64,000 nt of DNA from Escherichia coli (lineage in GTDB: Bacteria > Pseudomonadota > Gammaproteobacteria > Enterobacterales > Enterobacteriaceae), in the NCBI RefSeq assembly GCF_003018115.1, contig NZ_CP027457.1; one strand, given 5' to 3'. Positions 28,466 to 31,095 of the stretch are shown piece after piece. Numbering within the stretch: position 1 is the first letter of the stretch; the number at the start of each line of letters is the position of its first letter. The notes under the pieces are model-generated. The model worked only from the letters and a program-made list of their open reading frames with translations. It was not told the DNA's origin and did no database searches. The position numbers were made by a program, and so were the translations under genes.

Positions 28466-29248
28466 TTATCTCGTCACCTTCCTCAATTGCGCTTCCGCGT
28501 ATGCTTCTTCCTGCCAGCACTTTGTTACCAGTTTACCAATGACGTCCGCATACCCCTTATACCACTGATAATCGGTCAGGTCTGGTACCAGCTTCTGGAC
28601 ATGACGTCGTGCCAGCGTGGTCGGTAAACGACTAAACCGGTTTCCATTACAACGCCCACAAATCTTATATACCGGTACGCCATGAAACCGGGTTCTTTTT
28701 TCATCCAGAACAATCCCTTTACCCTTACACCCTCTGCACGCTGTGCTGGCTTCGCCCTTACCATGGCAATGCTGACATAGTTCCTTCACCCATTCTTCCT
28801 TGATTACAGATTCCCCGCGTCTGTAGTGTTTCACCACTTCGCGCAATACATTATAAAATCCCGTACCTGAACAATGCTCACAGCGAGCCTTACTTGCCGC
28901 AGACCTGGAGTAATCAGCAAAGGCAAAACTCACGAGGTAAGGAATAATCTGTAACCGGATTTCTTCACTCAATTTGTTCAATGTCGGGTTATCCAGTGCC
29001 ATCGCGTAATTTAGCAGGCCTTCAATCGCAAACTGAGGGTCCTGAACACCAACTTTTGCCAGAAATAAGGCCAACCCAAGTGGTGCTTTCGACTGCACCA
29101 TCCCCTGCGCTGCCATTACATCCGTAATTGTTAAACAACCGGTGCCTGTCGCTGGAGCGTCATCGCTCAATTTTGGAGATTTTGGGGAGTAATATTTTGG
29201 TAAGGCTTCAAGGTTCATGCTCGTTCTCCACTTACGCCAGTACGCCAA
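28466..29248 (-). CDS. quuQ: Late-gene antiterminator Q (phage 82/21-type Q family)
   Basis: 260 aa ORF with Cys-rich zinc-binding region; start may be internal Met at about 29218. Confidence 0.85.
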   Translation of the reverse strand: MAYWRKWRTSMNLEALPKYYSPKSPKLSDDAPATGTGCLTITDVMAAQGMVQSKAPLGLALFLAKVGVQDPQFAIEGLLNYAMALDNPTLNKLSEEIRLQIIPYLVSFAFADYSRSAASKARCEHCSGTGFYNVLREVVKHYRRGESVIKEEWVKELCQHCHGKGEASTACRGCKGKGIVLDEKRTRFHGVPVYKICGRCNGNRFSRLPTTLARRHVQKLVPDLTDYQWYKGYADVIGKLVTKCWQEEAYAEAQLRKVTR

Positions 29249-30281
29249 TTGTCAGCGCGCGATCGATAAAACGAAATATCAGCTCCAGTTGGGAGCCATA
29301 CTTATCTTCAAATGCCACTGTATCCGTATGCAGCTCGTTGTGATGCTTTCTGCACAAAGGCAACACAAAGAGATCATGTGCTTTTGTTCCCATTCCGCCC
29401 TGCCCGTGACCAATCAGATGATGCGGATCGTCGGCTGGCATACCGCAGCAAGCACACGGCTGTGTCTTAACCCAACGTGTGTATTTCTCCTTAACCCAGC
29501 GGCGACGTTTAGGCAGCTTCATGAAAGATTCCGGAGACTCTGGATCAACGGTGATGCTTACCACCGTCTTTTCCTGTGGTGATTTTTGTTGCTGGTGGGC
29601 GTAAGGCAACGGTGCAAGATTTTTTGTGCGTTGTTTCAATATGCTGGTGGCGGTCTGCTCTCCCGGTACGATGTCGCTTTCGCGGTACACCGAGCAGATT
29701 TTTTCCGCTGGTAATCCCAGCGAACGACGCGATACAGCCTCAGGTAGTGCATCCACCACCTGATTGCAGACCGCCCACCAGGATAATTCAGCCAAAGATA
29801 ATTCCCGCTCCTGCGTACCGCTTATTGCGTGACGGATGACGTCAATCACCCATGCTGTCAGATTTTGTTGAGCAAGCAGCTCCAGTGATTCCGATGTCTG
29901 GTCACGCAGTTGGTTGTCGCAGTGCCAGCACAACACCATTGCGCCGGTACCATAACGGTGAATGACTGTTTCAGTGTGATGGTAATCGCCATTAGGCCAC
30001 TGGCAGGATGTAACATGACGTAATAGCCAGTCGGACAATGCGCCAACGCCGCCAGCAGCACGAATCACCCGTTCGTTACTAAAAAACGGCAGCAATGTTT
30101 TGTCTTCCGCCAGCGGCTGGCGAACGGCAGGAACGACTCCGGATGGCAGATTACGCATGCTTTTTGGTTCCGGTTCCACCAGCACTCGAGGATTATGAAA
30201 TATCTGTATGGATTCACGGCCCGGCTTAAGGACCACCAGCCCAAGCTCAGGCACCAGAACAGGTCTAAGTAATACCCGCAC
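29232..30281 (-). CDS. ydfU: YdfU-like DUF968 protein with C-terminal HNH-like Cys/His motif
   Basis: ORF track 29232-30320; trimmed to GTG with GGAGG Shine-Dalgarno, giving 349 aa. Confidence 0.75.
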   Translation of the reverse strand: MRVLLRPVLVPELGLVVLKPGRESIQIFHNPRVLVEPEPKSMRNLPSGVVPAVRQPLAEDKTLLPFFSNERVIRAAGGVGALSDWLLRHVTSCQWPNGDYHHTETVIHRYGTGAMVLCWHCDNQLRDQTSESLELLAQQNLTAWVIDVIRHAISGTQERELSLAELSWWAVCNQVVDALPEAVSRRSLGLPAEKICSVYRESDIVPGEQTATSILKQRTKNLAPLPYAHQQQKSPQEKTVVSITVDPESPESFMKLPKRRRWVKEKYTRWVKTQPCACCGMPADDPHHLIGHGQGGMGTKAHDLFVLPLCRKHHNELHTDTVAFEDKYGSQLELIFRFIDRALTIGVLA

Positions 30282-30282
30282 G

Positions 30283-30561
30283 TTACCTCCAGATCCGTTG
30301 CTGGAAAGTGCGGGACGCACGTGGTGGGCGTTCGGAATAAGGCAGCCTGACAGAGATTATCCAGTGCCGATAGTCGAGACTGAGAGCTTTCTTAACCTCG
30401 AACCCGCGCCTGCGGTAAGAATGAATCAGCCATTCGGCCTGTTCTGCAGTGCATGGAGGGTGCTGGAACCATTCAGACTTGAATGCGTGAGAATACCGCC
30501 CGTGCGTGCAGGCAAGAACGGGCGAATTATCAGAATTGTAATATTTTGCGTTGCGTGCCAT
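30283..30561 (-). CDS. Hypothetical 92-aa protein, translationally coupled to ydfU
   Basis: ORF stop lies 1 nt from ydfU GTG start; no family recognised. Confidence 0.4.
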   Translation of the reverse strand: MARNAKYYNSDNSPVLACTHGRYSHAFKSEWFQHPPCTAEQAEWLIHSYRRRGFEVKKALSLDYRHWIISVRLPYSERPPRASRTFQQRIWR

Positions 30562-30627
30562 CGGTTTTCTCCGGTGGCACGGTGTTACTCAGCGGGAGTT
30601 CAGCCCCGCGCAAGATTGTAGATGAGT

Positions 30628-30879
30628 TTATTCTCCTGAAAAAGCAGAAAAGCCAGCTTTTATTCCGATCTCTTTCAATGCCTGTAATGAAGTGACAAAC
30701 TCACCTTCGCGCAAGATAAATCCGTCCGTGACCCGAGCATCCACAAAATTAATTAACGCAGCCCCATTCTTTCGCAAACACATAATGCGGTAATGACTAA
30801 CAAGATTTCCATTTTCAACGCACACAGCATAGAGGCCATCTTCACAAAAAATTTTACGCAGTTCTTCGATGTTCATCAT
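30628..30879 (-). CDS. Small prophage protein, possibly Rem
   Basis: 83 aa MMNIEELRKIFCEDGLYAV; position between ydfU and hokD; identity recalled with low certainty. Confidence 0.45.
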   Translation of the reverse strand: MMNIEELRKIFCEDGLYAVCVENGNLVSHYRIMCLRKNGAALINFVDARVTDGFILREGEFVTSLQALKEIGIKAGFSAFSGE

Positions 30880-31095
30880 CAGAATCCTTCCGGATAATTA
30901 GCTCTCCCCTTTAAGGGACCATCCCTCTTATCCCTGCGCGCTACTTAAGTATTTTTGATTCTATTCCGGCACCGTCCAGAACTTCAAACGCGTTGAAAAT
31001 AAAAACAAAAACCCGCCGAAGCGGGTTAAGTGCGGGTGCGTTGAGGATGCCTGCCACATCAGAGGTGGCGAGGGATTTCTCCCCCGCCGGGTCTC

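What the first reader, a model, noticed from the sequence alone, without database searches (positions are those of the whole stretch)
30283..30879. Two small ORFs between ydfU and hokD, one translationally coupled to ydfU
The 92-aa ORF stops 1 nt before the SD-supported GTG start of ydfU, suggesting coupled translation. Neither it nor the 83-aa ORF has a function I can assign; the Rem identity of the 83-aa ORF is a weak recollection.
Basis: inference. Interest (0 to 1): 0.25.

Follow-up and report, generated by a model that had tools for sequence, protein, structure and literature searches.

The report
Two small Qin prophage genes
The interval holds two real but ordinary prophage genes, the already named rem and a conserved 92-aa gene of unknown function placed to be translated together with the downstream nuclease gene ydfU; that 92-aa gene is missing from the curated K-12 MG1655 annotation.

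Summary
Window 30628..30879(-) is rem (b1561), 100% identical to WP_000980994.1. Window 30283..30561(-) is a 92-aa ORF that NCBI's automatic annotation pipeline (PGAP) calls 'hypothetical protein' WP_012304870.1, but the curated MG1655 record leaves it unannotated.

Both ORFs are under purifying selection (dN/dS about 0.1-0.27), like ydfU.

The 92-aa protein belongs to phage family phrog_1212. It has a fast-evolving, probably disordered 26-aa leader, a basic 66-aa alpha/beta core and a very conserved C-terminal tail (LP..PR..R..QQ+xW). Relatives of about 66 aa occur in temperate phages across Enterobacterales. They always lie in the nin / early-right recombination region, usually just upstream of a nuclease gene (DUF968, YbcO, NinG, RusA, RNase_T-type).

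The junction with ydfU is TGG-AGG-TAA-C-GTG. The last two codons form the GGAGG ribosome-binding (Shine-Dalgarno, SD) site of ydfU, and a predicted hairpin covers that site and the GTG start. Translational coupling is therefore plausible but untested.

rem and the 92-aa gene occur independently of each other, so one phage record's label 'toxin to Rem' is unsupported.

No fold or family match gives either protein a function. Verdict: correct reading, already catalogued genes, low novelty, and a small annotation gap in MG1655.

The parts
30628..30879 (-). rem (b1561), 83 aa, acidic (family median pI about 4.9); function unknown
   Evidence: 100% identity to WP_000980994.1 'protein Rem' in DH1 and to b1561 in MG1655. 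Matches phrog_340 at E 4.4e-21. Homologs carry the precomputed Pfam family PF27490. dN/dS is 0.13-0.14.
30885..30891 (-). SD-like GGAAGGA upstream of the rem ATG
   Evidence: Read directly from the sequence.
30283..30561 (-). 92-aa CDS (stop included), a phrog_1212 family member. PGAP annotates it as a hypothetical protein; the curated MG1655 record does not annotate it.
30484..30561 (-). Codons 1-26: lineage-specific, fast-evolving N-terminal leader, predicted disordered
   Evidence: pLDDT below 50 for residues 1-23. pN/pS is 0.51, indels are in frame, and there is no alternative in-frame start in codons 2-30. The ~66-aa relatives lack this segment.
30346..30483 (-). Codons 27-72: conserved basic alpha/beta core (beta-alpha-beta-beta)
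   Evidence: AF2 core pLDDT about 86. pN/pS is 0.16. This part aligns with the 66-aa family.
30286..30345 (-). Codons 73-92: highly conserved C-terminal tail LPYSERPPRASRTFQQRIWR
   Evidence: pN/pS is 0.07. Nine codons vary only synonymously and three vary in amino acid. The motif is conserved across genera.
30569..30572 (-). GGAG SD, 7 nt before the ATG of the 92-aa ORF
30286..30290 (-). GGAGG SD of ydfU, formed by the last two codons (TGG AGG) of the 92-aa ORF
30279..30281 (-). GTG start codon of ydfU, 1 nt after the TAA of the 92-aa ORF
   Evidence: The PGAP start. The phrog_96 profile begins at this residue. The N-terminus VRVLLRPV is conserved in 7 copies.
30275..30314 (-). Predicted RNA hairpin CCCGCACUUUCCAG / CUGGAGG-uaac-GUGCGGG that pairs the ydfU SD and GTG with codons 82-86 of the upstream ORF
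   Evidence: -21.1 kcal/mol over 60 nt, z = -2.1, reached by 6 of 200 shuffles. It is retained in the O157 and EC958 copies and weaker in phage 689R5.
29232..30281 (-). ydfU, a DUF968 His-Me-finger (HNH) nuclease-family gene; the downstream cistron
   Evidence: Pfam DUF968 at E 2.9e-76. Classified as a His-Me finger in PMC5714182.

Best explanation
The interval carries two separate, genuine protein-coding genes of a Qin-type lambdoid prophage. The first is rem, an accessory gene that is present in some prophages and absent in others. It sits just downstream of the hok toxin gene, and its function is unknown. The second is an unnamed 92-aa gene, the Escherichia version of a small basic phage protein family (phrog_1212, normally about 66 aa). 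This family lives in the nin / early-right recombination region. The 92-aa gene is the upstream cistron of a tightly packed pair with the nuclease gene ydfU. Its last two codons (TGG AGG) are the ydfU SD, its stop lies 1 nt from the ydfU GTG, and a local hairpin can hide both the SD and the GTG. A ribosome finishing the 92-aa ORF would therefore most likely open the site or re-initiate there, which ties YdfU synthesis to translation of the small gene. The small protein itself is under strong selection, above all on its C-terminal tail. I infer that it is a small nucleic-acid-binding or nuclease/recombination accessory factor made together with the downstream nuclease. In a K-12 lysogen both genes are probably largely silent, because a strong Rho-dependent terminator acts upstream of ydfU. 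Shown here: the genes are real, the family exists, the gene neighbourhood is conserved, and the junction has this geometry. Inferred: coupling and the accessory role.
For: Identity and annotation. Family: phrog_1212 at E 1.7e-35 over the whole 66-position profile, 76 representatives in a library of 1.84 billion proteins, and phage homologs in Escherichia, Salmonella, Klebsiella, Cronobacter, Citrobacter, Yersinia, Edwardsiella, Hafnia, Erwinia and Pantoea phages. Selection: dN/dS is 0.11-0.27 over the whole ORF and pN/pS is 0.07 in the tail. The antisense ORF is not conserved. Neighbourhood: the next gene downstream is DUF968, NinG, YbcO, RusA followed by DUF968, or an RNase_T-type exonuclease. 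NinB-like DUF1367 or YbcN genes often lie upstream. Junction: TGG-(A/G)GG-stop with a start 0-4 nt away wherever a gene follows tightly. The PY54-type copies have a 48-nt gap and end in TGG AAA TAA, with no SD. Hairpin. Basic character: family median pI 9.7, and net charge about +9 for this copy. Silencing: PMC9160355 reports a strong Rho-dependent terminator upstream of ydfU. Its supplement shows ydfU, but not rem, raised in a table I read as expression changes in termination-defective strains.
Confidence: 0.55

Rival explanations
1. The 92-aa protein is an independent nin-region gene, for example a host-takeover or anti-defence factor. Its position next to nucleases would then reflect only the conserved gene order and tight packing of lambdoid early operons, and the SD in its last codons would be ordinary operon economy.
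For: Immediate neighbours vary (DUF968, NinG, YbcO, RusA, RNase_T-Lar, Dcm, YfdP, unknown proteins). YbcO and DUF1367 occur without it. Close stop-start spacing is common throughout these operons.
Against: Across about 17 distinct gene arrangements the gene stays inside the recombination/nuclease block. In most of them a nuclease gene lies 0-2 genes downstream (same calls). There was no PADLOC hit, although that library holds defence proteins, not anti-defence proteins.
Confidence: 0.3
2. The small basic protein is an inhibitor or immunity-type partner that keeps the adjacent His-Me-finger nuclease in check, and coupled translation guarantees it is made first.
For: Its upstream position and tight coupling to nuclease genes. 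A small partner encoded next to an HNH nuclease is a known arrangement in colicin DNase-immunity pairs (my own knowledge).
Against: Nuclease inhibitors are usually acidic DNA mimics or specific binders, whereas this family is strongly basic. The same family precedes structurally different nucleases and also non-nuclease genes. YbcO exists without it.
Confidence: 0.08
3. rem and the 92-aa gene form a toxin-antitoxin pair, as implied by the label 'toxin to Rem' in one phage record.
For: One deposited annotation, ON470583. The charges are complementary: Rem pI about 4.9 and the 92-aa protein about 10.2. The two genes are adjacent.
Against: The 92-aa gene occurs without rem in EC958, ETEC4090 and O104:H4, and in all distant phages. 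The very record that carries the label has no rem homolog: tblastn with Rem finds nothing in it, and the gene there lies downstream of a different 130-aa hypothetical gene. rem occurs without the 92-aa gene. No paper in the library uses the label. Neither protein hits a toxin or antitoxin family above threshold.
Confidence: 0.03
4. The 92-aa ORF is a chance ORF or a decayed remnant, which would explain why the curated MG1655 annotation omits it.
For: It is absent from NC_000913.3. Rho terminates in this region. Chance ORFs of this size exist here, such as the antisense 137-aa ORF.
Against: dN/dS is about 0.16, variation is dominated by third codon positions, indels are in frame, and the ATG with its SD is conserved. 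Homologs reach other genera at 30-48% identity.
Confidence: 0.02

Closest known systems
Protein Rem (b1561, Qin prophage; PF27490; phrog_340)
   Same: The 83-aa ORF is this protein, residue for residue.
   Different: Nothing differs. The function remains unknown. The AF2 model is of low confidence (pLDDT 58.6) and gave no meaningful fold match.
phrog_1212: small nin-region proteins such as Gifsy-2 STM1021.1n, mEp237 gp51, PY54 ORF47 and N15 'Orf QD1'
   Same: The 92-aa ORF matches the whole 66-position profile. It shares the core and the C-terminal LP..PR..QQ+xW motif and the genomic setting. N15 Orf QD1 is the top hit among predicted viral structures.
   Different: The Escherichia Qin-type copies carry an extra, fast-evolving 26-aa N-terminal leader. 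They precede a DUF968 gene rather than NinG or YbcO.
Lambda/P22 NinF, the small gene immediately upstream of ninG
   Same: It occupies the same position in the nin region and is of similar size.
   Different: There is no sequence relationship: no Pfam NinF hit. In some phages both genes are present in series.
Gifsy-1 isrK-orf45-anrP: a small upstream ORF whose translation is needed for the next prophage gene (PMC4825925)
   Same: It is a mechanistic precedent. In a lambdoid prophage, a short ORF whose stop abuts the next start is required for translation of the downstream gene.
   Different: The sequences are unrelated. In that system the nucleotide sequence of orf45 is conserved while its peptide sequence varies. 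Here the protein is strongly conserved. No sRNA control is known for this locus.
Type II toxin-antitoxin pairs
   Same: Two small adjacent genes of opposite charge.
   Different: The two genes are not co-inherited. Neither matches a toxin or antitoxin family.

Membership tests
Rem (b1561 / PF27490) | Sequence identity to the named E. coli protein, and family membership | tested here: met
   100% identity to WP_000980994.1 / NP_416079.1. All homologs carry the precomputed PF27490. That model is not in the local Pfam copy, so it was not scored directly.
phrog_1212 | Significant match over the full length of the family profile | tested here: met
   E 1.7e-35, 121.9 bits, profile positions 1-66 of 66 against residues 27-92. 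Supported by a reverse profile search and an alignment.
Translationally coupled gene pair | The upstream stop and the downstream start overlap or lie within a few nucleotides | tested here: met
   TAA-C-GTG, a 1-nt gap, invariant in 7 copies.
Translationally coupled gene pair | The downstream SD lies inside the upstream coding sequence | tested here: met
   GGAGG is formed by codons 91-92 (TGG AGG). The same design appears in distant relatives. It is absent where no gene follows closely.
Translationally coupled gene pair | The downstream initiation site is masked by RNA structure that upstream translation would open | tested here: inconclusive
   The predicted hairpin pairs the SD and GTG: -21.1 kcal/mol, z = -2.1, reached by 6 of 200 shuffles. 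It is weaker in one copy.
Translationally coupled gene pair | Downstream translation depends on upstream translation | not testable with these tools
   This needs reporter fusions carrying start or stop mutations in the 92-aa ORF.
Type II toxin-antitoxin pair (rem + 92-aa gene) | Obligate co-occurrence of the two genes | tested here: not met
   The 92-aa gene occurs without rem. rem occurs without the 92-aa gene.
Type II toxin-antitoxin pair (rem + 92-aa gene) | Homology to a known toxin or antitoxin family | tested here: not met
   No Pfam, NCBIfam or PADLOC hit above threshold. Rem versus SocB scored 14.9 bits against a cut-off of 210.
NinF | Match to Pfam PF05810 | tested here: not met
   No Pfam family was found at E up to 1.
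Beta-clamp-binding proteins (speculative reading of the QQRIW tail) | A functional QL[SD]LF-like clamp-binding motif that binds DnaN | not tested
   The only basis is a resemblance I recall from memory between QxxΦΦ at the extreme C-terminus and clamp-binding motifs. No computation was done.

The most novel reading that the evidence does not exclude
The phrog_1212 proteins could be a dedicated small subunit for the nin-region recombination nucleases (DUF968, YbcO, NinG and others). The basic alpha/beta core would bind branched or single-stranded DNA. The near-invariant C-terminal tail (PR..R..QQ+xW) would dock onto the nuclease or onto a host replication/repair hub such as the sliding clamp. 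The embedded SD and hairpin would enforce stoichiometric co-synthesis. That would define a previously unrecognised component of lambdoid phage recombination.
Probability: 0.12. Interest if true: 0.5.

Novelty: already known. Interest (0 to 1): 0.2.

Why it matters
The practical point is small. The curated E. coli K-12 MG1655 record lacks a conserved 92-aa gene, under purifying selection, between ydfU and rem, although automatic RefSeq annotation already calls it in thousands of genomes. Biologically, it adds one more conserved component of unknown function to the lambdoid nin recombination block. It also gives a clear example of an SD built into a conserved C-terminal Trp-Arg/Gly codon pair. 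Nothing here changes current understanding unless the protein proves to be a nuclease partner.

Tried and rejected
Searches with no useful result:
- Pfam, NCBIfam and PADLOC gave no informative hit for either small protein.
- PDB sequence searches with single sequences and with profiles gave only chance-level hits.
- The predicted viral structure library returned only the homolog N15 Orf QD1.

Tools that failed or were unavailable:
- The afdb50 library was not available.
I sampled gene neighbourhoods through phage records and encoding contigs instead.

Literature:
- No paper mentions the 92-aa ORF, the label 'toxin to Rem', PF27490 or phrog_1212.
- The supplement of the small-ORF ribosome-profiling preprint has no entry at these coordinates, and the supplement of the earlier stalled-initiation study (10.1101/511675) is not held.

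Readings rejected:
- The 362-aa extended ydfU frame starting at 30320. The phrog_96 profile and PGAP both start at the GTG at 30281. The overlapped stretch evolves as the tail of the 92-aa ORF.
- The antisense 137-aa ORF, which is broken in all other copies.
- The rem/92-aa toxin-antitoxin idea, because the two genes are distributed independently.
- A sub-threshold Rfam isrK match in the hokD 3' region (25 bits against a gathering score of 50). It looks like a generic hairpin-plus-terminator architecture.

Full report
**Where this is.** The window around the finding is a Qin-type cryptic lambdoid prophage of E. coli. The 751 bases at 30200..30950 match many E. coli chromosomes at 100%, including the K-12 derivative DH1, and 4323 of 5426 complete genomes hold a related stretch. 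On the minus strand the gene order is relB, relE, hokD, rem, a 92-aa ORF, ydfU and ydfT (antiterminator Q).

**Check of the observation.** The ORF listing gives a 92-aa ORF at 30283..30561(-) and an 83-aa ORF at 30628..30879(-). The minus-strand junction reads ...CAG CAA CGG ATC TGG AGG TAA C GTG CGG GTA.... The stop of the 92-aa ORF is therefore one base from the GTG at 30281..30279, and GGAGG lies 4 nt before that GTG. PGAP starts ydfU (349 aa) at this same GTG in DH1. The phrog_96 profile also begins at that residue of the longer mechanical ORF. The N-terminus VRVLLRPV is conserved in seven diverged copies.

**Are these real genes?** ORF length proves nothing here, because an antisense 137-aa ORF (30208..30621, +) covers the same DNA. 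Conservation settles the question.
- I extracted the 92-aa ORF from seven prophage copies that are 76-80% identical in protein: the window, O157:H7, CNREC_004-43, EC958, O104:H4, ETEC4090 and phage 689R5.
- Pairwise dN/dS is 0.11-0.27 wherever dS is 0.3-0.7. Variable columns fall 17/20/45 by codon position.
- rem gives 0.13-0.14 and ydfU 0.09-0.25 on the same loci.
- The antisense frame is open only in the window copy and carries 1-3 stops in the other six.
- The exact 92-aa sequence is already in public databases on at least 1000 contigs as 'hypothetical protein' or 'Prophage protein'. PGAP annotates it as WP_012304870.1.
- The curated MG1655 record NC_000913.3 has no feature between ydfU (1643255..1644304) and rem (1644651..1644902). 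The gene would lie at 1644306..1644584 on the minus strand.

**The 92-aa ORF: family and anatomy.**
- It has no Pfam, NCBIfam, PADLOC or PDB sequence match.
- It matches phrog_1212 over the whole 66-position profile with residues 27-92 (E 1.7e-35).
- A profile search of 1.84 billion representative proteins finds only 76 members, most about 66 aa long.
- tblastn finds relatives at 30-48% identity in temperate phages of Salmonella (Gifsy-2, SPN3UB), Escherichia (mEp237), Cronobacter, Citrobacter, Klebsiella, Yersinia (PY54), Edwardsiella, Hafnia, Erwinia and Pantoea.
- The alignment shows three zones. First comes a 26-residue leader found only in the Escherichia Qin-type lineage. Then comes a conserved core, WF.H..T.EEA..L...Y..RG....K.L..D...W.VS..LP. 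Last comes a tail, PR..R..QQ(R/K)xW(R/G), that ends the protein.
- Pooled pN/pS is 0.51 for the leader, 0.16 for the core and 0.07 for the tail.
- In the tail, nine codons vary only synonymously and three vary in amino acid. Its conservation is therefore at the protein level, not simply invariant DNA.
- The leader has in-frame indels, an invariant ATG preceded by an SD-like sequence (GGAG 7 nt upstream in the rem-containing copies, a weaker AGAGA in the rem-less copies), and no other in-frame start codon before the core. The core can therefore only be made from that ATG.
- AF2 predicts a disordered leader (pLDDT below 50) and a beta-alpha-beta-beta core (pLDDT about 86), followed by a short terminal helix of lower confidence (pLDDT about 62).
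- The family is basic: median pI 9.7, and net charge about +9 for this copy.

**Genomic context.** In every locus examined the gene sits in the early-right / nin recombination block, between the replication genes and antiterminator Q. The arrangements seen were:

| Arrangement | Where seen |
|---|---|
| small gene, then DUF968 (then RusA and Q where the flank is held) | Escherichia prophages; one metagenomic contig next to recA and a lexA-like gene |
| NinB-like DUF1367, small gene, NinG | Gifsy-2, SPN3UB |
| small gene, NinG | Edwardsiella GF-2 |
| DUF1367 or YbcN, small gene, YbcO, RusA, Q | mEp237, phiES15, a Klebsiella phage |
| small gene, RusA, DUF968 | Citrobacter Chris1 |
| small gene, RNase_T-type exonuclease | two contigs |
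| small gene, one to three small genes (or Dcm and NinF), NinG | Hafnia, Erwinia, Pantoea, one contig |
| RdgC, small gene, 175-aa unknown | PY54 type |
| small gene, YfdP or 151-aa unknown | two contigs |

Pfam confirmed the NinG, YbcO and DUF968 assignments. DUF968, YbcO (DUF1364) and NinG are all His-Me-finger nucleases according to PMC5714182. PMC4118853 describes DUF968 proteins as an Orf/NinB-like domain fused to an HNH domain. The association with recombination and nuclease genes is strong, but it is not an exclusive pairing with one enzyme. In addition, a hok-rem-DUF1367-YbcO-Q arrangement exists without the small gene.

**Coupling to ydfU.**
- The junction ATC TGG AGG TAA C GTG is identical in all seven Escherichia copies.
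- In distant relatives the last two codons are again TGG plus AGG or GGG. A stop follows, then an ATG or GTG 0-4 nt away, whenever a gene follows tightly.
- In the PY54-type copies the next gene is 48 nt away. There the ORF ends TGG AAA TAA, with no SD-like sequence.
- This natural comparison suggests two things. The Trp is kept for the protein. The final Arg or Gly codon also serves as the SD of the next gene.
- A local hairpin pairs codons 82-86 of the small ORF with the ydfU SD and GTG (window 30314..30275). It folds at -21.1 kcal/mol over 60 nt, with z = -2.1, and 6 of 200 shuffles fold as well. It is kept in the O157 and EC958 copies and is weaker in phage 689R5.
- Termination-reinitiation, or unmasking of the site by the upstream ribosome, is thus plausible. 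It is not demonstrated.
- A related precedent exists in Gifsy-1. There, translation of the short orf45 is required for translation of the next gene, anrP (PMC4825925).

**Expression in K-12.** PMC9160355 lists the terminator upstream of ydfU among the strongest Rho-dependent terminators. A table in its supplement shows ydfU raised but not rem; I read those values as expression changes in termination-defective strains. This places Rho action between rem and ydfU. It implies that the 92-aa ORF is poorly translated in the resting lysogen. I found no ribosome-profiling or proteomic evidence for it.

**rem and the 92-aa gene are not a pair.**
- One phage record labels the 92-aa homolog 'toxin to Rem'.
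- The 92-aa gene occurs without rem in EC958, ETEC4090 and O104:H4, and in all distant phages.
- Phage 689R5, the record that carries the label, itself has no rem homolog: tblastn with Rem finds nothing in its locus.
- rem occurs without the 92-aa gene.
- No paper uses the label, and neither protein matches a toxin or antitoxin family.

**Most likely mechanism and confidence.**
- I am about 95% confident that both ORFs are real genes.
- I put about 60% on ydfU translation being coupled to the 92-aa ORF.
- I put about 30-35% on the small basic protein acting with the neighbouring nuclease or recombination proteins, whether by binding nucleic acid or as an accessory subunit.
- The main rival (about 30%) is an independent nin-region function, with adjacency reflecting only gene order.
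- An inhibitor or immunity role is less likely, because the protein is basic and its neighbours are varied.
- A resemblance between the QQRIW C-terminus and clamp-binding motifs is only a recollection. I did not test it.

**Novelty and verdict.** Both genes are already catalogued: rem has a name, and the 92-aa gene is a RefSeq hypothetical protein and a PHROG family. This analysis adds four things:
- the three-zone anatomy of the 92-aa protein;
- the family-wide C-terminal motif that doubles as the SD of the next gene;
- the consistent placement in the recombination/nuclease block;
- the observation that the curated MG1655 annotation omits the gene.

This is ordinary prophage biology of low novelty. 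Interest is 0.2.

Noticed in passing
window 30592..30620 (-): Upstream of the 92-aa ORF there is an invariant TACAAT (30620..30615), which is part of a promoter-like match TTTTCA-16-TACAAT. A small stem-loop follows at 30609..30592 (GCGGGG-CUGAAC-UCCCGC). In 8 prophage copies the loop core CUGAAC is invariant, and the stems differ by compensatory changes (GCGGGG/UCCCGC vs GCAGGG/CCCUGU; GUCAG/CUGAC vs GCCAG/CUGGC). Predicted folds are only -7 to -10.7 kcal/mol (z -1.0 to -1.5). There is no U-tract, so it is not an intrinsic terminator. Its role is unknown.
   Followed up: partly
MG1655 NC_000913.3 1644306..1644584 (minus strand) = window 30283..30561: The curated MG1655 record has no feature for the 92-aa gene, although PGAP annotates it (WP_012304870.1) in DH1 and thousands of other genomes.
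   Followed up: yes
window 30208..30621 (+): An antisense 137-aa ORF covers the whole 92-aa gene. It is open only in this copy and carries 1-3 stops in six other copies, so it is a chance ORF.
   Followed up: yes
window 31006..31087 (-): The hokD 3' region, with its intrinsic terminator (31027..31010), gives a sub-threshold Rfam match to the Gifsy-1 sRNA isrK (25.1 bits against a gathering score of 50; E 0.002-0.012). This is probably generic hairpin-plus-terminator similarity.
   Followed up: partly
window 30958..30987 (-): A promoter-like TTGAAG-18-TAGAAT lies just after the hokD terminator and about 80 nt upstream of rem. It is a consensus match only.
   Followed up: no
window 29232..30281 (-) and flanks: In this window ydfU is followed directly by the Q-like antiterminator ydfT. 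Five of the six related Escherichia prophages examined have a rusA gene between the two, as does phage 689R5. Phage HannyBb, like this window, has none.
   Followed up: no
window 29232..30281 (-): The YdfU protein in this window differs from the DH1 copy (99.7% identity) and the MG1655 copy (99.4%), while rem and the 92-aa ORF are identical. The window is therefore probably not MG1655 itself.
   Followed up: no
window 30321..30440 (-), codons 41-80 of the 92-aa ORF: The window copy is identical at the nucleotide level to the EC958 copy over about 40 central codons. Elsewhere it differs from that copy at many positions. This mosaic pattern suggests recombination between prophages.
   Followed up: no
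L022 (phage HannyBb) 3099..3171: The deposited annotation of phage HannyBb starts the DUF968/HNH gene 72 nt downstream of the conserved GTG used by PGAP. This is probably a wrongly called start.
   Followed up: no
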